Below are positions 1 to 50,060 of a DNA stretch of 64,000 nt, piece by piece. The notes below the pieces were generated by a model, which was not told the origin of the DNA, made no database searches, and was given only the letters and a program-made list of their open reading frames with translations. The position numbers were made by a program, and so were the translations under genes. The stretch's first letter is position 1. Every line of letters begins with the position of its first letter. The DNA is taken from contig NC_085846.1 in assembly GCF_035594765.1 (NCBI RefSeq), forward strand, positions 11,519,190 through 11,583,189, given 5' to 3'. This DNA comes from Anolis carolinensis (taxonomy: Eukaryota).

Positions 1-2
1 AC

Positions 3-545
3 GTGATAGTACACCTTACAAAGAAAATTGCAAGAGATGAAATATTGAGAATAAATAACAAAAAACAGATATTCTACAAAGAGACAAAAATAGCGATATT
101 GAAGGAAGTACCAAATACAATAATAAATAGAAGGAAAAAATATACCTTCCTGACAGAGGAATTGAAGCAACAGAAGGCGAGATACAGGTGGGAAAGAGAA
201 GAAGGATTAATGACAACGTATAAAGGTCAAAGGTATTGGATCACAACAGAAGAAAGAGCCCGAGAATTTTACAACACAATAAGAAAGGAGAAGGATGAAG
301 AATCTGAAAGGAAACAAAAAGAGAAGAAAAAACCAAAGAGACAACGTATAGAGTCACCCGAAAAAGATGATTTGGACATAAAAGAATGCAGACTGAACCT
401 AAGGGGAAACATGGAACCTACGAATTTAGGAAAAGTGGAAGAAAGACAGGTGGAAGAGGAACAAGAGGATAGAATGAGAGAAGAAGAGGAGGAAGAGGAC
501 GAGACAGAAGCAGTGGGTGATAAGGACGAAGATAAATATGAGTGA
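3..545 (+). CDS. L1 ORF1p C-terminal part (partial) with an acidic tail
   Basis: Open frame ending TGA 543-545, directly upstream of and overlapping ORF2. Resembles the L1 ORF1p C-terminal domain, followed by an E/D-rich tail. Confidence 0.8.
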   Translation: MIVHLTKKIARDEILRINNKKQIFYKETKIAILKEVPNTIINRRKKYTFLTEELKQQKARYRWEREEGLMTTYKGQRYWITTEERAREFYNTIRKEKDEESERKQKEKKKPKRQRIESPEKDDLDIKECRLNLRGNMEPTNLGKVEERQVEEEQEDRMREEEEEEDETEAVGDKDEDKYE

Positions 546-3500
546 ACTTAAAATTTATTCAAACAATATTAACGGACTAAATTCGGCAACAAAAAGGAAT
601 AAAGTATTTAATGAGCTAAAGAAAAAAAGATATCAAATTATTGCTCTCCAAGAGACCCACATATACCAAAAACACGTTAAATATCTGGAGGAAAAAAAAC
701 TGGGACAATGCTTTTATGCCTCGGCATTAGAAAAAAAAAAGGGGGTAGTGATGTATGTAGAAAGGAGAATACCAGCTAAATTAGCTTTTAAGGATGAGGA
801 GGGTAGATTCATAGGAGTAAAAATAACGATTCAGGGAATAGATATATTAATATGTAACATATATGCACCTAATGGAGCAAAGTCAGCATTCACAGAAAAA
901 CTAAAAGGCAGTATAAATGATCAAGAATATGAACATTTAGTATTAATAGGAGATTTCAACGGTGTAGTAGAGGGGGAAATAGATAGGAGTAAAGTAGCGA
1001 AGAAAGGGAAAAGTAAAAATAATATAGGGAATTTACCAAAAACAATGATGAGCATGATGAAGGAACTAAACATTCAGGATAGCTGGAGAATAAAACATGA
1101 AGGAGTAAGGGATTTTACTTTTTTCTCGACCAGACACCAAAGCTGGTCGAGAATCGACATGGCGTGGGTGTCAAAGTCCTTAATACCAAAAATAAGAAAA
1201 ACAGTGATATTGCCAAGGTTAGATTCAGACCATTGCCCATTAGAATTAGAGATATTCTACAATAAAAAAGAATGGAAGTGGAGGTTAGATGAAAATCTAT
1301 TGAAGAAAGAGGAAGACATTGAAAGAATAAGGAAAGTAATACAAGAATATTTCGAGATAAATGACACAACAGAGATAGACCTATTTACATTGTGGGAAGC
1401 AAGCAAAGTAGTAGTAAGAGGGAGATTTATCCAACAAAAAGCAATTAAAAAGAAGGAAAGATTAAAAAAAATGAACAAGATAATTGAAGAAATAAAAAAG
1501 GAAGAAATTAGGTTAAAATCAAACCCAAGTAACAAGGATACCCAGAGGAACATAGAAATCTTACAAAAACAAAGGGAATATTTGATAATGGAGGAAAGGG
1601 CTAATAAACTGAAATTTATAAAGCAAGATTTCTTTCAAAACGCAAATAAACCGGGAAGATGGATGTCTAATAGAATTAAGGAAAGAAAGGAAAGTAAATA
1701 TGTAACAAAAATAAAAGAAGGGGACAAAATATATACAAAGGAGGAAGACATAAAAACCCAATTCCAAAAGTTTTATGAAACACTCTACCAAAAAGAACAA
1801 ATAGACGAGGAGAAAATAATGAAATACATAGAAGAGAGAAAAGTGACCAAAATCTCAGAAAAACAAAGAGAGGAACTAAATAGGGAAATTACAGAGCAGG
1901 AGATAAAGAAGGCCATACAAAATTTGAAACCTAATAAGGCCCCAGGCCCAGATGGGCTAACAGCAGTATATTATAAAACCTTCGGCCAAGAGCTAATACC
2001 ATACTTGAAAAAAATTATGAATAGGATTAGAGAAATTGCAAAAATGCCGGAAACATGGAAACAAGCAAACATATGTACAATACATAAAGAAAATTCGGAC
2101 CCAGAAAAAATTAAAAATTACAGGCCAATTTCACTATTAAACTTGGATTATAAAATTTTTAGCAATATAATAGCGGAAAGATTTAAAAACTTTTTAAAAA
2201 ACTGGATAAAAGAAGAACAAACAGGGTTTTTGCCCAATAGACACCAAAGAGAAAATGTAAGAACCATCATTGACTTGATTGAATATTATGAAATAAAAAA
2301 TCAAAAAAAAGTTCTTTTACTGGCCCTCGATGCTGAGAAAGCTTTCGACAATGTAAATTGGTCCTTTTTCAAATTATTAATAAGGGAAATGGATATAGGT
2401 TATTATTTCCAAAATACAATTGATGCAATATACACCTCACAAAAGGCAAAAATACTAATTAACGACCGAGAAACGAAAGATATAAATATAGAGAAAGGAA
2501 CTAGGCAAGGCTGCCCCTTATCACCATTAATATTCATTTTAACACTGGAGATACTATTAAACAGAATAAGGGAGGAAGAAGAACTGAAAGGAGCAAAAAT
2601 ACAGAATTATGAATACAAAATCAGAGCCTTCGCGGATGATATTATATGTGTAATAGAAGACCCGGACACAAAACTAGGAAAATGGCTAGAGATAATAAGA
2701 GAATTCGGAGCAGTAGCAGGATTTAAAATAAATTTGGAAAAAACGAAAGCAATTACCAAAAATATAACAAAGAAGGAACAAGAAACTTTAATGAAAAAAT
2801 GGAATATCCAAATCGCCCCCAAAATAAAATATCTAGGAATAATTATAACCCAGAAAAACTCTCAGCTACTTGAAAATAACTATCTAACAAAGTGGAAAGA
2901 GATGAAGAAGGAAATGGAGATTTGGGGGAAGTTAAAACTTTCATTGTTAGGCAGAATAGCATGTGTAAAAATGAGTATTCTACCAAAAATGATATTCCTA
3001 TTTCAGAATCTGCCGATAATTAGAAACCAAAAGACCCTTAAAGAGTGGAACAGGGACATAATGAAATTTATATGGCAAAAAAAGAAACCGAGAATAAAGC
3101 TGAAATATATGATCCAGGAAAAGAACAGGGGGGGACTAGCGACACCAGACTTAAAACTTTACTTCGAAGCATCGGCTTTAATGTGGGTACGAGATTGGAC
3201 AAAATTAGAAAATAATACATTGCTAAATTTGGAAGGAATAAATTTAAGATTGGGTTGGCACGCATACCTATGGTATGGGAAATCCAAAATTGAGAAAGAA
3301 TTTAATAATCATTTTATACGCTCAGCAATTCTTAAAATTTGGGAAAAATACAAAAAGAAATTATATGACAAAACGCCTTTATGGGCTTCTCCCCTAGAAG
3401 CATCGCAGAGAAGACTACTGGGATGGCACAACTGGCCAAATTATAAAGAATTATTAGTAAAACAGAATGGAGAATGGGAAATGAGACCCCAACAGGAACT

Positions 3501-4287
3501 GAGAGAAATAAATAAAAAGATTTCCTGGTATCAGATATGGCAGGTAAAAGAACATTTTAAGACAGACAAACAAGTAGGATTTGAGGAGCAAAATACATTC
3601 TGGGAAAAAATAACACAAACAGACAGAAAAATAATAACAAAAATCTATAAAAAATTAATAGAATGGGAAACAGAAAAAGAGGAGGAAAAATCATATATGA
3701 CCAGATGGAATGAAAATATAGGCAGGAAGATTAGGAAAGAAGAATGGGAAGGAATCTGGAGGGAGAAACTGAAATATAGCTATGCAACAGATCTAAAGGA
3801 AAATTGGATTAAGATGGCCTATAGATGGCACATGACACCACAAAAATTAGGAAAATGTTATAAAAACTTTTAAAAAAATTGTTGGAAGTGTGAGAAGATT
3901 GAGGGCACATACTACCATATGTGGTGGGGATGTGAAAAAGCCAAGATATATTGGAAGAAAATTAGGGGAGACATAGAAAAGATATTAGAGATAAAACTGC
4001 CAATGAAACCGGAAATATGGTTACTAGGAATAACGGAACAAAAACTAGAAAAAAATAAAGATAAATTATTATTTCTGCTAACGACGGCAGCAAGGATATG
4101 CTATGCGAGGATTTGGAAGAATCCTGAAATCCCTAAAGAAGAAGAATGGTTGAAAAAAATACAAGATATAAAAAATATGGATAGGCTCACTTTCCTTCTA
4201 TCAAAAAGTAAGGGAAATCCGATAAAAGAAACAAATTGGGACAATGTAACAAAATACCTAGAAGGAAAGATAAAACATTCAAAATAA
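538..4287 (+). pseudogene. L1 ORF2p (APE endonuclease, RT, CCHC domain) with one in-frame TAA at 3871-3873
   Basis: ATG at 538. EN motifs NINGLN, LQETH, GDFN, SRID, SDH; RT motifs PGPDG, YRPISLLN, DAEKAFD, GTRQGCPLSP, FADD, YLGI. The same frame continues past the stop as KNCWKCEKIEGTYYHMWWGC (CCHC) to TAA 4285-4287. Confidence 0.93.
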
Positions 4288-38910: not shown

Positions 38911-39760
38911 CAGGGGTCCCCAAACTAAGGCCCGGGGGCCGGATGCGGCCCTCCAAGGTCATTGACCTGGCCCCTGTCCTAAACTTTAGACTTAGGGTTG
39001 ACCTAAGTCTACCTGGTCTTTGGAGGTCTCTTTGCTTATCTATGGTCTTATGAGAGCGTCTAGATGGTCTTTGAAGGTCTCTTTGCTTAGCTATGGCCTT
39101 ATGAGACCATCTAGATGGCTTTTGGAGGTCACTTTCCTTACCTATGGTCCTATGAGACCGTCTAGATGGCCTTGGAGGGTCCCTTTCCTTACCTATGGTT
39201 TTATGAGAGCGTCTAGATGGCCTTTGGGGCCCCTATCCTTGTCTATGGTCTTATGAAACCATCTAGATGGTCTTTGAGGTCCCTTTCCTTATAGATGGTC
39301 TTCTGATGGCCTGATGAGATCATCTAAATGGCCTTTGAGGGTCCCTTTCCTTACCATAGAATCATAGAATAGTAGAGTTGGAAGAGACCACATGGGCCAT
39401 CTAGTCCAACCCCCTGCTAAGAAGCAGGAAATCGCATTCAAAGCACCCCCGGTGGTCTTATGAGACCATCTAGATGGTCTTTGGAGGTCCCGTTGCTTAC
39501 CTATGGTCTTATGAGATTGTCTAGATCAGGGGTCCCCAAACTAAGACCCATGGGCTGGATGAGGCCCTCCAAGGTCATTGACCTGGTCTCTGTCCTAAAC
39601 TTTAGACTTCGGGTTGACCTAAGTCTGAAATGACTTGAAGGCACACAACAACAACAATTTTAAAAAAAAACAATTTTGGGCTATTTCATCATAGTCCAGC
39701 CCCCTAACAGTCTGAGGGACTGTGAATCAGCCCTCCACTTAAAAAGTTTGAGGACCCCTG
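38911..39760 (+). mobile_element. hAT-type non-autonomous element with a duplicated left end (38911 and 39527) enclosing a minisatellite
   Basis: caggggtccccaaact occurs twice; right end agtttgaggacccctg at about 39745-39760. Confidence 0.7.
39010..39526. repeat. 51-bp minisatellite, about 8-9 degenerate units, interrupted by a CR1 tail
   Basis: ctatgg recurs at 39040, 39091, 39142, 39193 and 39243. The unit contains the palindrome agaccatctagatggtct. Confidence 0.9.
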
Positions 39761-43000: not shown

Positions 43001-43154
43001 GGCCTGGCTACAGTCATTCCCAATGTCTCCAGGGTAGATAACACATCCAGTTTCTTGGAAAAACTACCACACCGCAAGCATCCTGGCGCTGTCCACCTGA
43101 AAAATATCAGTCTTCCGTCAGAGCTGGTGGAAGCAGCTCGCTTTCTGGTATCCC
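43001..43154 (+). CDS. METTL17: METTL17 exon 2
   Basis: AG/GT bounded; GLATVIPNVSRVDNTSSFLEKLPHRKHPGAVHL resembles human [24 protein letters not shown]. Confidence 0.93.
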
Positions 43155-43346
43155 GTGAGTAAAACTTATAAAATTTAGGAGTCTCTGGGGTGTGAGACAG
43201 TTGGACTGTATGCAGTGAAGGCCCTATTTGTCTGGAATTATAGGTAGCAGAAGAATACGACTACAGTTATTATTATTATCTTTATTTATATCCTGCCTTT
43301 CTCCCCATAAGGACTCAGGGCGGTTAACATCTATCCACACTAGACT

Positions 43347-44500
43347 TGTTATGATTGAGCCTCGTGGCTCTGTTACTGACAGGCGTGGGCGTAAGACTCC
43401 TCGAGAGTCAGATACTCTCGAGGAGCGAGAGAGAAAAAGACTGCGAGACATATTTGCAGCACCATCTGACGAGGAGTCTTTCGAAGGGTTTACGGAGAGA
43501 ATGGAGGAGGAGCTGGTTAGCTCAGAGGAGGATGAGATGGATTGGACTCGGGTAAGGGAGGAAGTGGGTGCCACTGGCCATGATGGGACAGAAGATGAAT
43601 GGGGACCTTCAGGATTAGACCCATGGTTTAGCTGGAGGGATGGGACGGGATCCACAGCTGGAGATGCTGTTGGGCGTAGTCAGAGGTGTTCCAGCTCTGA
43701 CGAGGAAAGTGATGAGGAAACGCCCGGGTTAAGGAGGACAGCTGACAGTGATGAAGATTTGTAACTGGCATAAAATGGGGCTTGGGAGCAATTGCAAATT
43801 GCGTTGGGCAAGGTAATCTGGGCAAACGCTTGGGATCCGTGTGTGTGTGGGACGCTTCCCTGAAGACTTGTGTGCTTTCCTGTGCTGTGACGTAAGTTGA
43901 TTGGAATCCAGGGTCAGACGGCGGGAGGGATTGTGTGGGCATTTGTTTGTGCAAACCTGTGCTTACTCTTATTAGCTTGACCCTCCGTCGTCTTCTTGAC
44001 GGACGCCATCTCCTGCTTTGAGAACTCGGACTGAACTGACCACGGCTTGTCTTCCCCCCTTCTTGGACTTGGAAAAACTACAAACGTCTGCTTCTGGCTT
44101 TGATCTACGGAACGGAACTGGTCTACTCAACTGCTACAATCCTTGGCTGATTTACTCGTGTTGGAGATCCTGTCTGCTGTGTGTGTGTGTGTGGGAGCGA
44201 CGCAAGTTACTCTAAGCACAGTGTTGGCAGCAGAGAGGAATCTGCTGCCAATTAGTTGCATTCTTTGTATCTTTTGTTCCTTGGCTTTCGTTTCGTTTAT
44301 ACCCAGGCTGAAGCAAGCAGTTTGTTTTTACCCGGATTAAACTCCGGTTTAATCCGGTTTATCTTTTGAACATTTACTTTTGCCCCTTTTTGCTCCTAAA
44401 GGCAAAAACTGCCTGGCCCTTGTGTTTTACGGGCATTTTTTGAGTTCTGTAATCTAATAAACTCTGTTACTTTGAATCTTGTGGCGTTCTGTCCTTGACA
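43347..44500 (+). repeat. 5' LTR (U3 about 43347-43800; CATAAAA 43769-43775; AATAAA 44456-44461)
   Basis: Direct repeat of 48544-49697; TGTTA...TGACA ends. Confidence 0.97.
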
Positions 44501-44502
44501 GA

Positions 44503-44513
44503 TTGCCCAACGC
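44503..44513 (+). promoter_or_regulatory. Self-priming primer-binding site (non-tRNA)
   Basis: TTGCCCAACGC is the exact reverse complement of GCGTTGGGCAA at 43801-43811, about 30 nt after the TATA-like box. Confidence 0.85.
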
Positions 44514-44555
44514 CCATAAAAAGTTTATTGCAGCAATAAACCCGTCAGGAAGACG

Positions 44556-45356
44556 ATGGATGAGTTACGGGCCAAAGTAGACCAATTGCAAACGGCTTTT
44601 ACCGTTAGCCAAACAGCTCAGGCTGTGAAAGGACATGTTTTGACTCCTGAACGCTTTGACGGAACCAGGTGCAAGTTGCCAACCTTTTTGGCACAAGTGG
44701 AGCTTTATTTTTCTCAGCTCAGTGCTCATGCTTTTCCTACAGACACTAGCAAGGTGGCCTTTATTTTGAGTTTGTTGACCGGTCCCGCAGGACAATGGGC
44801 CACTAATTTAATTTTGGGAAATGACCCAGTCAAGGACAATTTGAATAATTTCAAAAAGTTGTTAACTGATACTTTTGGGGATCCTCTCCGCACGGAGAAC
44901 GCTGGGTGGGCTCTGTATCGGTTGAAACAGGGAAAGGGGACTGTTTTGGATTACTTAAATAAGTTTAACCTGTATCGCCACCAGCTGGATTGGGGGGAAA
45001 ATGCATTCATGCTTTTATTTACTGCCGGGTTAAGTGATATGCTCCAGGATGAATTAGCACGCTTGGAGCCGGCTGAAAGCTGGGACGCCTTAGTAGCTAA
45101 GGTGCTGCGTTTAGACGCAAGGTTCGAGGCTCGTAAACACTCAAAAGCAATGTGTGCGCCACCCATGCATGTAACCAGGGCACCTGTGGTGATGGGGGAA
45201 GAGCCCATGGAGCTTGGGGTCTTTAAAAAGCTGTCTACAGAGGAAAAGAGCCGTAGGAGGCAGCTGGGCTTGTGTTTGTACTGTGGGAATGCTGGGCATT
45301 TTGCCAAAAATTGTAATGTGAAACCTTCCCAGCTTTCGGGAAAAGGCCAGCCCTAG
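44556..45356 (+). CDS. gag: Gag (capsid plus CCHC zinc knuckle), 266 aa, PEG10/sushi-like
   Basis: PERFDG, LKQGKGTVLDY, EPMELG and CLYCGNAGHFAKNC. Confidence 0.95.
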   Translation: MDELRAKVDQLQTAFTVSQTAQAVKGHVLTPERFDGTRCKLPTFLAQVELYFSQLSAHAFPTDTSKVAFILSLLTGPAGQWATNLILGNDPVKDNLNNFKKLLTDTFGDPLRTENAGWALYRLKQGKGTVLDYLNKFNLYRHQLDWGENAFMLLFTAGLSDMLQDELARLEPAESWDALVAKVLRLDARFEARKHSKAMCAPPMHVTRAPVVMGEEPMELGVFKKLSTEEKSRRRQLGLCLYCGNAGHFAKNCNVKPSQLSGKGQP

Positions 45357-45384
45357 TGCGACGTGAGTCCAACGCACTAGGGCT
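45338..45384 (+). promoter_or_regulatory. -1 programmed ribosomal frameshift signal
   Basis: Slippery G GGA AAA (45338-45344), then a perfect 12-bp stem 45349-45360 / 45373-45384. pol is in the -1 frame and open from 45317. Confidence 0.85.
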
Positions 45385-48300
45385 CCTCAAGCAGTCAACT
45401 GAGGGGAGGAAGCATGTTTTCGTACCCATTACATTATCTGTTGGGGGAAGGGAACTTGTTTCTACTTTGGCACTGCTGGACTCAGGGGCTACGGTCTCCT
45501 ATGTAGATATTGAGTTTGCTAAGAAGCATGGCATTCCTAGAGTGCGCAAGGCATGCGACGTGTGGGTGGAAGGAGCAGATGGGAGACTGCTGGAGACTGG
45601 GGTGGTTAACCATGAAACCTCAGCAGTAACGTGGGAGGTGCAGGGAGTAACGGGAACGTTTGTGTGGGATATTACGAGCTTGCCTAGATATGATGTGATC
45701 CTGGGGATGGATTGGCTAGCTGTAGTAAACCCACAAGTAGACTGGGCAACACGTAAAGTGATCTTAAAGAGGCAGGATTGTTGCACTCTAAATGTTACTC
45801 ATTCTGATATGGAGGGAGTGCCTGCTGAGTATGGGGAGTTCTCTGATGTATTTTGTAAAAGAGAAGCGGACAAATTACCACCGCACAGGCCATATGATTG
45901 CGCCATCAAGTTGGCAGAAGGTGCGAAACTGCCAGCAGGGAGGCTGTATGCCTTGACTGTACCGGAAAGGCAAGCTTTGCGGGAGTTTCTAGATGAAAAT
46001 TTAGCCAAGGGGTTTATTCGCCCATCTAGTTCTCCAACTGCGGCACCAGTATTCTTTGTAGCCAAAAAGACTGGGGAACTTAGGCTGGTCTGTGACTATC
46101 GGATCCTAAATAAATACACCATTCGGGATAGGTACCCGCTCCCTTTAATCTCGGAACTGTTATCAAGGGTGCAAGGGGCTAAGGTCTTTACCAAGCTTGA
46201 CCTGCGGGGGGCCTATAACTTAATCCGTATACGGGAAGGGGATGAATGGAAGACGGCATTTAACACGTGTTTCGGATGCCACGAGTTCCGAGTCATGCCT
46301 TTTGGGCTTTGTAATGCTCCTGCGGTATTCCAGAGGTTCATGAACGATGTGTTCAGGGACCTAATTGACCAATTTTTAGTGATTTATTTGGATGATATCT
46401 TGATTTTTTCTAAGGACGAGAAAGAACATCGTCAACATGTCAAGCAGGTTCTGCACCGACTGCGGGCTAATGGGCTTTTCGCCAAGGCTTCCAAGTGCGT
46501 CTTTCATGTGCCTGAAGTGGAGTTCCTAGGTCATGTAGTGTCAGGTAGGGAACTTAAAATGGACCCACATAAGGTTGACGCCGTCAACTCATGGCAGGAG
46601 CTGAAGACTAAGAAGGATGTACAAAGGTTCTTGGGTTTCGCTAATTACTACCGGGAGTTTATTCCGAATTTTGCAAAGCTCACGGTACCTTTGACGCAGC
46701 TTCTGCGCAAGAAACAGCCATTTGTGTGGGGGCGGGAAGCTCACGAGGCGTTTCTACAATTAAAGTCTAGTTTTCAATCGGACAACATACTAACCCATCC
46801 TGATGTTGACAAACCGTTCGTGGTAGAAGCGGACGCTTCTAGCTACGCGTTGGGGGCTGTATTGTCTCAGAAGGATTCCTCAGGGACCTTGCGTCCCTGT
46901 GGATTTTACTCGCGGCAACTAACACCCTTCGAGCAGAACTATACCATATGGGAGAAGGAGTTGTTGGCGATTAAGGTGGCGTTTGAGGTGTGGCGGCACT
47001 GGCTTGAAGGGGCACGGCACCAGATCGTGGTCAGATCTGATCACAAGAACTTAGAGCACTTGCAAACAGCAAAGAGGTTAAACCAGCGTCAAATCCGCTG
47101 GGCTTTGTTTTTCTCCAGGTTTAACTTCAAGGTGCAGTTCGTGGAGGGGAAGGCAAACTTGCGGGCCGATGCTTTATCCCGCAAGCCGGAATTTAAGACC
47201 AATGAGCAGGTAGTATGTCAGACCATCTTGCCTACTGCCTCTCTGTGTGTTGTAGATAATGAGCTTGGGTTACATGACCAGATCCTTGAGGCTCAGAAGG
47301 ATGATGTGTGGACTCAGGAGCAACTGATGCTGCTCTCTGCAGGTAACCGTACCATACTACCGCATCTCCAGGATCAAGACGGGGTATTGGTGCGTAGGGG
47401 GCAGGTTTACGTACCAGTAGGGACCCTCAGGTTGGAGGTGATTAGAGCCCACCATGACGAACCCATGGCTGGGCACTTTGGCAGGTTCAAGACCGTACAG
47501 CTTATCACCAGGAGCTACTGGTGGCCAAAGATGCGGCAAGACATTCTGCGCTTTTGTGACAGCTGCGCCGTTTGTCAGCAGAGTAAGACGCCTGTTGGGC
47601 GCCCTAGAGGGTTGTTATCGTCTTTACCTGTTCCGGAGAGGCCATGGCAAATCATTTCCATGGATTTTATTTCAGATTTGCCTAAGTCTGGGGGTTATAC
47701 TTGTATTTGGGTGGTGGTGGATTTATTTAGTAAACTGGCTCATTTTATTCCTTGTTCAACCATTCCGGCGGCCCCTACGTTGGCCTTACTATTTACAAAG
47801 CACATCTATCGTTTGCACGGAGCACCCGAGGTGATTATTTCAGATAGGGCTCCGCAATTTGTGTCACGCTTTTGGAAACACTTCCATGAGTGTTTGGGGA
47901 CTAAGTTAAACGTGTCTTCAGCTTTCCATCCGCAAACGGATGGACAGTCGGAACGGGTTAATGGGCTCTTAGAGCAGTATCTGCGTTGTTTTTGTTTAGA
48001 TCAACCCACGGCTTGGGTAAAGTGGTTACCGGTGGCGGAATTTGCTTACAACAATGCGGTGCACACGTCTAGTCAGCATACGCCATTTGAGCTAACTTAT
48101 GGTTTTCACCCACGGGGAGGTGTGGCGCCGTCGACCAATGTGGTCTCTTCGGACCCTGTGTACCGCTCTTCGGAAATGGCTGCATTGCATGATGTTGCCC
48201 GTCGCTTACTGTTGGAAGCTAAGGCAACGCAAAAGACTCAGGCTGACCGCCACAGGCAGGCAGGGGAGGAGTTGGAAGAAGGGGATTTGGTGTGGTTATC

Positions 48301-48961
48301 TTCCAAACATATTAAACAGGCTGGGGGAAAGTTTGCGCCTCGGTATTTGGGTCCCTTTCCTATCGTTAAAAAGATTTCTTCTGTTGCGTTTCGTTTGCGT
48401 TTACCGTCTAGTTTAAAGGTCCATCCAGTCTTTCATCGTTCGCTGTTGAAACTTGATACCTCTAGTCGTCGTGGTGCTATAGCAGAGGGTATCACTGCCA
48501 CTTCTCCGCCATCGGGGGAGGAGGCCTTTGTGAGAGGGGATAGTGTTATGATTGAGCCTCGTGGCTCTGTTACTGACAGGCGTGGGCGTAAGACTCCTCG
48601 AGAGTCAGATACTCTCGAGGAGCGAGAGAGAAAAAGACTGCGAGACATATTTGCAGCACCATCTGACGAGGAGTCTTTCGAAGGGTTTACGGAGAGAATG
48701 GAGGAGGAGCTGGTTAGCTCAGAGGAGGATGAGATGGATTGGACTCGGGTAAGGGAGGAAGTGGGTGCCACTGGCCATGATGGGACAGAAGATGAATGGG
48801 GACCTTCAGGATTAGACCCATGGTTTAGCTGGAGGGATGGGACGGGATCCACAGCTGGAGATGCTGTTGGGCGTAGTCAGAGGTGTTCCAGCTCTGACGA
48901 GGAAAGTGATGAGGAAACGCCCGGGTTAAGGAGGACAGCTGACAGTGATGAAGATTTGTAA
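45338..48961 (+). CDS. pol: Pol (protease, RT, RNase H, integrase with GPF motif) with a C-terminal extension encoded by U3 of the 3' LTR
   Basis: LLDSGA, YLDD, DAS, HH...CAVC, MDFI...SDRA...QSER and YLGPF motifs; no stop until 48959-48961, inside the 3' LTR. Confidence 0.96.
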   Translation, partial: GKRPALVRRESNALGLLKQSTEGRKHVFVPITLSVGGRELVSTLALLDSGATVSYVDIEFAKKHGIPRVRKACDVWVEGADGRLLETGVVNHETSAVTWEVQGVTGTFVWDITSLPRYDVILGMDWLAVVNPQVDWATRKVILKRQDCCTLNVTHSDMEGVPAEYGEFSDVFCKREADKLPPHRPYDCAIKLAEGAKLPAGRLYALTVPERQALREFLDENLAKGFIRPSSSPTAAPVFFVAKKTGELRLVCDYRILNKYTIRDRYPLPLISELLSRVQGAKVFTKLDLRGAYNLIRIREGDEWKTAFNTCFGCHEFRVMPFGLCNAPAVFQRFMNDVFRDLIDQFLVIYLDDILIFSKDEKEHRQHVKQVLHRLRANGLFAKASKCVFHVPEVEFLGHVVSGRELKMDPHKVDAVNSWQELKTKKDVQRFLGFANYYREFIPNFAKLTVPLTQLLRKKQPFVWGREAHEAFLQLKSSFQSDNILTHPDVDKPFVVEADASSYALGAVLSQKDSSGTLRPCGFYSRQLTPFEQNYTIWEKELLAIKVAFEVWRHWLEGARHQIVVRSDHKNLEHLQTAKRLNQRQIRWALFFSRFNFKVQFVEGKANLRADALSRKPEFKTNEQVVCQTILPTASLCVVDNELGLHDQILEAQKDDVWTQEQLMLLSAGNRTILPHLQDQDGVLVRRGQVYVPVGTLRLEVIRAHHDEPMAGHFGRFKTVQLITRSYWWPKMRQDILRFCDSCAVCQQSKTPVGRPRGLLSSLPVPERPWQIISMDFISDLPKSGGYTCIWVVVDLFSKLAHFIPCSTIPAAPTLALLFTKHIYRLHGAPEVIISDRAPQFVSRFWKHFHECLGTKLNVSSAFHPQTDGQSERVNGLLEQYLRCFCLDQPTAWVKWLPVAEFAYNNAVHTSSQHTPFELTYGFHPRGGVAPSTNVVSSDPVYRSSEMAALHDVARRLLLEAKATQKTQADRHRQAGEELEEGDLVWLSSKHIKQAGGKFAPRYLGPFPIVKKISSVAFRLRLPSSLKVHPVFHRSLLKLDTSSRRGAIAEGITATSPPSGEEAFVRGDSVMIEPRGSVTDRRGRKTPRESDTLEERERKRLRDIFAAPSDEESFEGFTERMEEELVSSEEDEMDWTRVREEVGATGHDGTEDEWGPSGLDPWFSWRDGTGSTAGDAVGRSQRCSSSDEESDEETPGLRRTADSDEDL
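48532..48543 (+). promoter_or_regulatory. Polypurine tract
   Basis: GAGAGGGGA(TAG) immediately before the 3' LTR. Confidence 0.8.
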
Positions 48962-49697
48962 CTGGCATAAAATGGGGCTTGGGAGCAATTGCAAATTGCG
49001 TTGGGCAAGGTAATCTGGGCAAACGCTTGGGATCCGTGTGTGTGTGGGACGCTTCCCTGAAGACTTGTGTGCTTTCCTGTGCTGTGACGTAAGTTGATTG
49101 GAATCCAGGGTCAGACGGCGGGAGGGATTGTGTGGGCATTTGTTTGTGCAAACCTGTGCTTACTCTTATTAGCTTGACCCTCCGTCGTCTTCTTGACGGA
49201 CGCCATCTCCTGCTTTGAGAACTCGGACTGAACTGACCACGGCTTGTCTTCCCCCCTTCTTGGACTTGGAAAAACTACAAACGTCTGCTTCTGGCTTTGA
49301 TCTACGGAACGGAACTGGTCTACTCAACTGCTACAATCCTTGGCTGATTTACTCGTGTTGGAGATCCTGTCTGCTGTGTGTGTGTGTGTGGGAGCGACGC
49401 AAGTTACTCTAAGCACAGTGTTGGCAGCAGAGAGGAATCTGCTGCCAATTAGTTGCATTCTTTGTATCTTTTGTTCCTTGGCTTTCGTTTCGTTTATACC
49501 CAGGCTGAAGCAAGCAGTTTGTTTTTACCCGGATTAAACTCCGGTTTAATCCGGTTTATCTTTTGAACATTTACTTTTGCCCCTTTTTGCTCCTAAAGGC
49601 AAAAACTGCCTGGCCCTTGTGTTTTACGGGCATTTTTTGAGTTCTGTAATCTAATAAACTCTGTTACTTTGAATCTTGTGGCGTTCTGTCCTTGACA
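48544..49697 (+). repeat. 3' LTR
   Basis: Same length as the 5' LTR; no difference found by eye, and ORF-track translations of both copies are identical. Confidence 0.97.
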
Positions 49698-49907
49698 AGA
49701 CTAGACAAGTTTAAAAAGAGTTTAAAAGTTTTTTTAACTATTAAATAATTACAGTGTTCCATGACTGAAGGGTTCCACGACTGAAAAGGTTTGGGAACCT
49801 CTGCAGCTCATAGTGTGAAGACAACATATGTGTTATATGAAAGCAAGAAAGCACATCATGTTTCAAAGAGAGAGTGTCTCCAACCTGACTTCTATTCCTT
49901 CTCCTAG

Positions 49908-50060
49908 AATCCTCCATGCGCAGTATGGAAAAGCAAACAAAGGCCCTCACCAATTATCTCTGGAGCCGCAAGCGCCCCATGGAGACAGTGGACCTGCGCA
50001 AGAAAGCAGAGCAGATGGAGCAGAAGCTACGGCAGGAGATGGCCCATATCCATCGGAAGG
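49908..50060 (+). CDS. METTL17: METTL17 exon 3
   Basis: SMEKQTKALTNYLWSRKRPME; AG/GT bounded and phases consistent. Confidence 0.93.

What the first reader, a model, noticed from the sequence alone, without database searches (positions are those of the whole stretch)
43347..43800. Almost the whole U3 of the LTR is protein-coding, with its own ATG 5 nt from the LTR edge
Seen: the frame is open across the PPT and LTR terminus. An ATG lies at LTR position 5 (43351 and 48548), and the stop (43762-43764) falls just before the CATAAAA box. U3 therefore serves as att site, promoter and a 137-codon ORF at once. Established: LTR-overlapping ORFs are known in complex retroviruses (HIV nef, MMTV sag) but are unusual in Gypsy retrotransposons. 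Inference: every LTR, including solo LTRs, carries a stand-alone mini-gene with a basic NLS-like patch and an IBM that host read-through transcription could express, possibly competing for LEDGF/TND factors or providing material for exaptation.
Basis: partly seen in the sequence, partly recalled or inferred. Interest (0 to 1): 0.75.

Follow-up and report, generated by a model that had tools for sequence, protein, structure and literature searches.

The report
LTR-encoded integrase tail mimics LEDGF partners
In a young jumping gene of an anole lizard, the integrase gene runs on through nearly all of the promoter part of the end repeat and carries a short motif resembling the one host proteins use to grip LEDGF, the chromatin anchor that HIV also uses, so it likely replaces the missing histone-reading domain as the element's landing guide; a separate mini-gene in the repeat is not supported.

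Summary
Observation confirmed: ATG at LTR base 5, 137 codons, stop five bases before CATAAAA, and pol reads in frame across the PPT. The element is an intact, young Tf1/Sushi-type Ty3/Gypsy retrotransposon (identical LTRs, self-priming) of Anolis carolinensis, inserted in a METTL17 intron. The U3 frame is family-wide (22 of 27 listed copies reaching the LTR are full length) and is best read as the integrase's C-terminal tail. This family lacks the chromodomain its relatives keep, and the tail holds a helix-linker-FxGF motif whose top PDB hit is JPO2 bound to LEDGF (12 of 20 identical; E 0.068, weak). Similar motifs sit in six other integrases with damaged chromodomain cages, on a separate branch (one origin rejected, p 0.002). 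Best explanation: a LEDGF/HRP2-tethering targeting domain (0.55); binding and insertion bias are untested. The stand-alone mini-gene is unsupported: the element's promoter starts downstream, the ATG lies in the att end and varies among relatives, and no RNA joint was seen. LTR-encoded targeting tails are known (plant CRM group A); I found no paper on this motif in a retrotransposon integrase, and the scan had not noted it before.

The parts
43342..43346 (+). target-site duplication, left (repeat at 49698-49702)
43347..44500 (+). 5' LTR, 1154 nt, identical to 3' LTR
43347..43800 (+). U3 (boundary inferred from self-priming complement and TATA position)
43351..43764 (+). 137-codon ORF copy in the 5' LTR, upstream of the element's inferred start site
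43381..43446 (+). two basic patches 12 residues apart, bipartite-NLS-like (pattern recalled; 3' LTR copy 48578-48643)
   Evidence: sequence
43435..43494 (+). IBM/TIM-like motif (helix with Phe, 8-residue acidic linker with a CK2-type Ser, FxGF), 5' LTR copy
43769..43775 (+). TATA-like CATAAAA, 32-26 nt before the inferred start site
43801..43811 (+). inferred RNA 5' end / self-primer
44456..44461 (+). AATAAA polyadenylation signal near the LTR end (long R, short U5 inferred)
44503..44513 (+). self-priming PBS, complementary to 43801-43811
44556..45356 (+). gag (Retrotrans_gag, Ty3_capsid, zinc knuckle)
45338..45344 (+). slippery heptamer in the gag/pol overlap; pol is in the -1 frame
   Evidence: sequence
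45317..48961 (+). pol: protease, RT, RNase H, integrase (zinc finger, core, SH3 to residue 1045), no chromodomain, then a 169-residue tail
48532..48543 (+). polypurine tract, read in frame
48544..49697 (+). 3' LTR; 48545-48961 encodes the last 138 integrase residues and the stop; motif at 48632-48691
43001..43154 (+). host METTL17 exon upstream of the insertion
   Evidence: E 7.7e-10; contig boundary
49895..50035 (+). next host METTL17 exon (approximate, aligned part only)
   Evidence: E 1.8e-06

Best explanation
The U3 frame encodes the last 138 residues of the pol frame of a chromodomain-less Ty3/Gypsy element, likely kept as the integrase tail, and its helix-linker-FxGF motif is predicted to bind the host chromatin readers LEDGF or HRP2, which would tether the integration complex to active gene bodies in place of the missing chromodomain. 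Steps: (shown) pol reads through PPT and U3; no chromodomain; motif present family-wide and most like JPO2's LEDGF-binding motif. (Inferred) Gag-Pol is made by -1 frameshift from the genomic RNA, which carries U3 only at its 3' end; mature integrase keeps the tail; the basic patches import it into the nucleus; CK2-type phosphorylation of the linker tunes binding; LEDGF/HRP2 read H3K36me2/3 and bias insertion into transcribed genes. The 5' LTR and solo-LTR copies of the ORF are by-products of LTR duplication.
For: Frame and domains. The motif's top match among 177,635 PDB sequences is 6EMO, LEDGF IBD-JPO2 M1, both with a 37-aa query chosen around it (E 0.068, 12 of 20 identical) and with the whole 137-aa ORF (E 1.3). 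It shows the published anatomy: helix with conserved Phe, 8-16-residue acidic Ser/Thr linker, FxGF, the last found in all known LEDGF/HRP2 partners (PMC9987994 section 6 and passages; PMC10854676 passages). Shuffles of the tail give it in 23 of 20,000 (loose pattern) and 5 of 200,000 (strict). The helix Leu and Phe and all three FxGF letters are invariant in 21 full copies that are 70-99% identical over U3. In a DNA run, 12 of 13 differences seen over 39 bases of the motif in a diverged subfamily fall on third codon positions (loose ends at 43430 and 43489, read by eye); all 12 indels shown (of 21) lie after the stop, at 43838-44436, none in the U3 frame. The family nests in a lizard/snake clade whose other members keep a chromodomain. 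The same kind of motif occurs in 6 of 157 relatives' tails (shuffled mean 0.19), in 0 of 127 with a full aromatic cage and 6 of 38 with a damaged one; these six form their own branch, and one origin with the window family is rejected (p-AU 0.0023). The one insertion seen lies in a host gene intron.
Against: No binding or insertion-site data. The PDB E-values are not significant, and the two-motif stretch of relative P0175 did not retrieve JPO2. The patterns were written after seeing the motif. The 20-residue windows over the motif are no more conserved (7-8 variable columns of 20) than the tail as a whole (55 of 138); the most conserved block is residues 91-120, which may be promoter sequence. 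Two of 27 copies lose the motif by an early break. The cage/motif contrast rests on two lineages only and on a rough pattern; the clade test group was named after a first tree was seen. Many relatives read 85-191 codons into U3 with no such motif, so the long frame does not need it. One genic insertion says little. Protease could remove the tail.
Confidence: 0.55

Rival explanations
1. The frame is a real integrase tail, but its work is nuclear import or general acidic/basic chromatin contact; the FxGF motif binds another TND protein or serves at another step (transcription of the provirus-like copy, particle assembly) and does not steer insertion.
For: Long U3-encoded tails with acidic and basic stretches occur in relatives without the motif; two basic patches flank the motif's start; the motif window is not more conserved than the tail.
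Against: Match to JPO2 M1 spans helix, linker and FxGF; FxGF is the part tied to LEDGF/HRP2; the motif appears only with a lost or damaged chromodomain.
Confidence: 0.27
2. One reading: every LTR carries a stand-alone mini-gene, expressed by host read-through or a spliced subgenomic RNA, whose product competes for LEDGF/TND factors.
For: Met is kept in 27 of 27 copies reaching the junction; five contigs of RNA-like run X17 run from other flanks into the LTR start; a 137-aa ORF of this family was called on a 1092-nt Logan contig (P0050); a donor-like AAG/GT lies at 43811-43814 (sequence).
Against: The ATG is inside the att end, and the codon is Met, Val, Thr or Arg in relatives. The element's promoter fires downstream. 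At this locus host read-through meets a stop right after the exon and a two-codon ORF at 43210 first. Candidate acceptors before either ATG have only 4-9 pyrimidines in 14. No RNA-run joint among 15 shown of 107; run X20 has a contig covering the host exon alone. Contigs cannot show absence.
Confidence: 0.1
3. The open frame is a neutral by-product of a G/A-rich U3 in a very young family, and the motif is chance.
For: Identical LTRs and pol cores 92-99.9% alike show youth; U3 is G/A-rich; gene models favour open frames; 5 of 27 copies break in U3.
Against: 5 of 5000 shuffles stay open; length and end are kept at 70% protein identity; third-position bias and indel contrast with R/U5; recurrence of the motif on another branch.
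Confidence: 0.08

Closest known systems
CRM group A plant chromoviruses (CR motif as putative targeting domain; PMC3059260, passages read)
   Same: Ty3/Gypsy chromovirus in which the polyprotein runs into the 3' LTR, and the LTR-encoded part holds a non-chromodomain motif at the chromodomain's place.
   Different: Plant, tRNA-Met primed, centromeric, partner unknown; here a lizard self-priming element whose motif resembles a known host motif and points to active chromatin. No sequence link tested.
Tf1/Sushi chromoviruses of fungi and vertebrates (self-priming noted in PMC6317226, passages)
   Same: Self-priming PBS of 11 nt, gag/-1/pol layout, PR-RT-RH-IN order, Tf2-1-like SH3 domain; nests among chromodomain-bearing lizard and snake elements.
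   Different: No chromodomain; 169-residue tail with an IBM/TIM-like motif, 138 residues from U3.
IBD-binding / TND-interacting motifs of JPO2 (CDCA7L), IWS1, MLL1, POGZ (PMC9987994, PMC10854676; PDB 6EMO)
   Same: Helix with Phe, acidic Ser-bearing linker, FxGF; 12 of 20 residues identical to JPO2 M1.
   Different: Here on a mobile element's integrase and encoded by an LTR; binding untested. POGZ is a domesticated Passer transposase (PMC7386202), so a transposon-derived LEDGF partner exists, but that paper's main text has no mention of LEDGF or integrase.
Lentiviral integrase-LEDGF tethering
   Same: Same proposed host tether and outcome, integration in active gene bodies (PMC9987994 'Viral mimicry' passage).
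   Different: HIV integrase uses a pre-folded surface, unlike the unstructured IBM of cellular partners (PMC10854676); this element would use the cellular-type motif.
HIV nef / MMTV sag (recalled, no call)
   Same: Long ORF overlapping U3.
   Different: Those are separate genes on spliced or internal RNAs; here the frame is continuous with pol and no separate RNA was seen.

Membership tests
Tf1/Sushi-group Ty3/Gypsy (chromovirus lineage) | PR-RT-RH-IN order with Ty3-type capsid | tested here: met
Tf1/Sushi-group Ty3/Gypsy (chromovirus lineage) | self-priming PBS complementary to the RNA 5' end | tested here: met
   11-nt complement
Tf1/Sushi-group Ty3/Gypsy (chromovirus lineage) | groups with chromodomain-bearing elements by RT-RH-IN | tested here: met
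   named Tf1/Sushi references were not in the tree
Chromovirus in the strict structural sense | chromodomain at the integrase C-terminus | tested here: not met
   no Chromo hit at E 0.1 or at E 10 for family member P0035
CRM group A | polyprotein extends into the 3' LTR | tested here: met
CRM group A | tRNA-Met primer site, CRM clade, CR motif | tested here: not met
   self-priming site and lizard/snake clade; CR motif itself not compared
IBM / TIM ligand of LEDGF-HRP2 | FxGF | tested here: met
   invariant in 21 of 21 full copies
IBM / TIM ligand of LEDGF-HRP2 | acidic linker of 8-16 residues with CK2-type Ser/Thr | tested here: met
   8 residues, S-x-x-E site
IBM / TIM ligand of LEDGF-HRP2 | upstream helix with conserved Phe | tested here: inconclusive
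   Phe invariant and aligned to JPO2's; the AlphaFold model was low-confidence throughout (mean pLDDT 37)
IBM / TIM ligand of LEDGF-HRP2 | binds the IBD/TND | not testable with these tools
nef/sag-like separate U3 gene | own spliced or internal mRNA | tested here: inconclusive
   no RNA-run joint among 15 of 107 shown; contigs only
nef/sag-like separate U3 gene | frame separate from pol | tested here: not met
   continuous with pol

The most novel reading that the evidence does not exclude
Lizard chromoviruses have at least twice swapped histone-methyl reading for mimicry of the cell's own LEDGF/HRP2-binding motif, once by writing it into the LTR promoter, so that LTR retrotransposons reached the HIV tether by a different molecular route and insert into active genes; hundreds of LTR copies would also hold a ready-made LEDGF-binding peptide that may be expressed or co-opted.
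Probability: 0.4. Interest if true: 0.8.

Novelty: new variant of a known kind. Interest (0 to 1): 0.62.

Why it matters
How vertebrate LTR retrotransposons choose insertion sites is largely unknown. If the motif binds, this is a retrotransposon using LEDGF/HRP2 through the cellular-type short motif rather than the folded lentiviral surface, gained on two branches together with chromodomain decay. It gives a natural pair in one genome (chromodomain-bearing and motif-bearing Anolis families) in which a switch of targeting can be read from insertion maps, and a 20-residue peptide that can be assayed at once. It also shows promoter DNA under protein-coding constraint, parallel to plant CRM elements.

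Tried and rejected
No genome is held for the window, so no genome-wide copy, solo-LTR, dN/dS or insertion-site analysis was possible. Pfam finds nothing in the 137-aa ORF; the ESM Atlas gave no usable hit; a search with the ORF alone returned only two proteins of the same family. No RNA holder was listed on record; three runs guessed as RNA were laid as contigs, which cannot show starts, strand or level. AlphaFold on a six-row alignment was uninformative. The metagenome scan gave two distant integrase fragments only. PDB search with the two-motif stretch of P0175 did not find JPO2. My recollection that the pogo survey describes an integrase-binding motif in Passer transposases was not borne out by its main text (supplements not read). 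Capture of the motif from the lizard CDCA7L gene could not be tested (no sequence); only 20 residues match, so convergence is the simpler reading. Two primary IBM papers are not held. No complex prediction was run, as no LEDGF/HRP2 sequence was at hand. The Ensembl-type model P0028 that joins the 5' LTR ORF to pol and the model P0021 named OGFRL1 isoform were taken as gene-prediction products, not evidence of expression. Trees left out 27 of 127 rows (incomplete or chimeric cores) and 1 of 30.

Full report
Observation. Two identical 1154-nt LTRs (43347-44500, 48544-49697) with a 5-nt target duplication frame an intact element. An ATG lies at LTR base 5, the frame runs 137 codons to TAA at 43762-43764, and CATAAAA follows at 43769. 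In the 3' LTR the same frame is the end of pol (45317-48961, 1214 aa). The sequence behind the 5' LTR is not tRNA-like; its 11 nt at 44503-44513 are complementary to 43801-43811, and the predicted fold of the leader pairs them. This is the self-priming arrangement described for the Tf1/Sushi group (PMC6317226, passages). It puts the RNA start at 43801, 26-32 nt after the TATA-like box, and makes U3 454 nt, 92% coding. The frame stays open in 5 of 5000 shuffles.

What the element is. Pfam finds capsid and zinc knuckle in gag, and protease, RT, RNase H, integrase and a Tf2-1-like SH3 domain in pol, with no chromodomain. Near-identical proteins are named Anolis carolinensis and form clusters of 46 and 75 members. 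The flanking exons match METTL17, so the copy lies in sense in a host intron. In trees of RT-RH-IN (100 of 127 rows, 29 of 30 rows) the family nests in a well-supported clade of lizard and snake elements whose other members keep a chromodomain; the domain was therefore most likely lost on this branch.

Is the frame maintained? Of 34 listed family proteins 27 reach the LTR junction, 22 carry the whole U3 part without a gap and end at the same residue, at 70-99% identity against 92-99.9% in the pol core; 5 break inside U3, 2 of them before the motif. These are gene models and a partial listing. Contigs of one DNA and three RNA-like runs add DNA-level hints: all 12 indels shown, of 21, lie after the stop in R/U5; and where a diverged subfamily leaves loose ends over the motif, 12 of 13 differences in 39 bases fall on third codon positions (read by eye; about 2 in 100,000 if positions were equal, my arithmetic). 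Only 3 of the 40 substitutions shown (of 192) lie in U3, too few to use.

The motif. Residues 29-48 of the ORF hit PDB 6EMO, the LEDGF IBD fused to JPO2 motif 1, as best match among 177,635 sequences, with 12 of 20 residues identical (E 0.068 for a query chosen around it; E 1.3 and still first for the whole ORF). These E-values are weak, as expected of a short motif. The anatomy fits the published one: a helix with a conserved Phe, an acidic linker of 8-16 residues with CK2-type Ser/Thr, and FxGF, which all known LEDGF and HRP2 partners have (PMC9987994, section 6 and passages; PMC10854676, passages; figures and supplements not seen). Shuffled tails give the pattern in 23 of 20,000 (loose) or 5 of 200,000 (strict); both patterns were written after the motif was seen. 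Its key Leu, Phe, Phe, Gly and Phe are invariant in 21 full copies, but the window as a whole is no more conserved than the rest of the tail. The structure prediction was uninformative.

Recurrence. Among 279 relatives, the SH3 end was located in 257. A similar motif occurs in six (P0009, P0089, P0102, P0110 named Podarcis muralis; P0175, P0205 unnamed), 6 of 157 tails long enough to judge against a shuffled mean of 0.19; three carry two motifs, which none of 20,000 shuffles each gave. All six have a damaged aromatic cage: 0 of 127 with three cage residues, 6 of 38 with two or fewer, 0 of 92 with no chromodomain located, many of these truncated (rough pattern). The six form one clade, sister to a snake element, with the motif before the apparent PPT; holding them together with the window family is rejected (p-AU 0.0023, 19 rows; the group was named after the first tree). 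So there are two gains, or one gain with several losses and a move; two lineages cannot give a statistical test of the link with cage decay. The profile used was built partly from three of the six, and the P0175 stretch did not retrieve JPO2 from the PDB.

The mini-gene idea. Met is kept in 27 of 27 copies, but it lies inside the att end, and relatives reading into the LTR at the same kind of junction have Met, Val, Thr or Arg there. The element's own transcript would start downstream of the 5' ORF. At this locus read-through from the host exon meets a stop at once and a two-codon ORF at 43210. No joint in an RNA-like run is among the 15 shown of 107, and a contig of X20 covers the host exon alone; on the other side, five X17 contigs run from other flanks into the LTR start. 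Contigs cannot show absence, so the idea is unsupported rather than excluded (0.10).

Mechanism. Most likely (0.55): Gag-Pol made by -1 frameshift carries the tail; integrase keeps it; the basic patches serve import; the motif binds LEDGF or HRP2, which read H3K36 methylation, and insertion is biased to active genes. Shown: frame, chromodomain absence, motif, conservation, recurrence. Inferred: expression, retention after processing, binding, targeting. That the frame is the integrase tail at all I put near 0.85. The main rival is a tail working in import or at another step (0.27).

Known and new. Pol running into the 3' LTR is not rare in Gypsy elements: it is the rule in CRM group A, where the LTR encodes the CR motif in the chromodomain's place (PMC3059260, passages), and 39 of 257 relatives show a PPT-like junction with read-through (guessed from protein, some are chimeric models). 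LEDGF tethering is known for lentiviruses, by a folded surface, and POGZ is a transposase-derived partner (listing, 20, 40, 61). The scan's earlier notes hold nothing on this locus or sequence; one search listed fungal chromoviruses with AT-hook add-ons, a loose parallel that I did not test. HIV nef, MMTV sag, the NLS pattern and the HMGN motif are recalled.

Verdict. Real feature; new variant of a known kind (LTR-encoded targeting tail), with a host-motif mimic that names a testable partner. Interest 0.62; 0.8 if binding and gene-body bias are shown.

Noticed in passing
proteins P0006, P0073, P0078, P0248, P0237 (relatives' integrase tails): Tails end in RRSxR[LI] (5 of 157; shuffled mean 0.12), like the HMGN nucleosome acidic-patch motif (resemblance recalled; listing shows the string in HMGN papers). 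It may be another LTR-encoded chromatin-grip add-on.
   Followed up: partly
proteins P0009, P0089, P0175, P0205, P0102, P0110: A separate clade (four named Podarcis muralis, two unnamed) with damaged chromodomain cage followed by one or two IBM-like motifs, placed before the apparent PPT; three have two motifs in tandem.
   Followed up: yes
proteins P0073, P0078: A chromodomain-bearing Anolis family has a partial acidic LxGF motif shortly after its apparent LTR junction; it did not pass the stricter pattern.
   Followed up: partly
window 43001-43154 and about 49895-50035: The element sits in sense orientation in an intron of METTL17, a mitochondrial ribosome assembly gene; a DNA contig of run X6 stops at 43296, so presence in that sample was not shown.
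   Followed up: partly
window 44523-44541: A perfect hairpin just after the PBS hides an AATAAA (44535-44540); it forms in the predicted fold and may block premature polyadenylation.
   Followed up: no
window 43801-44500: R would be about 680 nt and U5 only some 20-25 nt, if the start site and AATAAA are read rightly.
   Followed up: no
window 44500 to 43347 joint in run X6: A DNA contig joins LTR end to LTR start with 5 letters between: a two-LTR circle or a tandem insertion.
   Followed up: no
window 43621-43707 (U3 residues about 91-120): The most conserved block of the tail among copies lies 60-150 nt before the TATA box; it may be promoter elements or a second protein motif.
   Followed up: no
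window 39007-39306 and many 57-108-nt repeats across the window: A 51-nt tandem array and a dozen copies of a short interspersed repeat, some as inverted pairs.
   Followed up: no
window 1-4000: Strong AT and GC skew, not examined.
   Followed up: no
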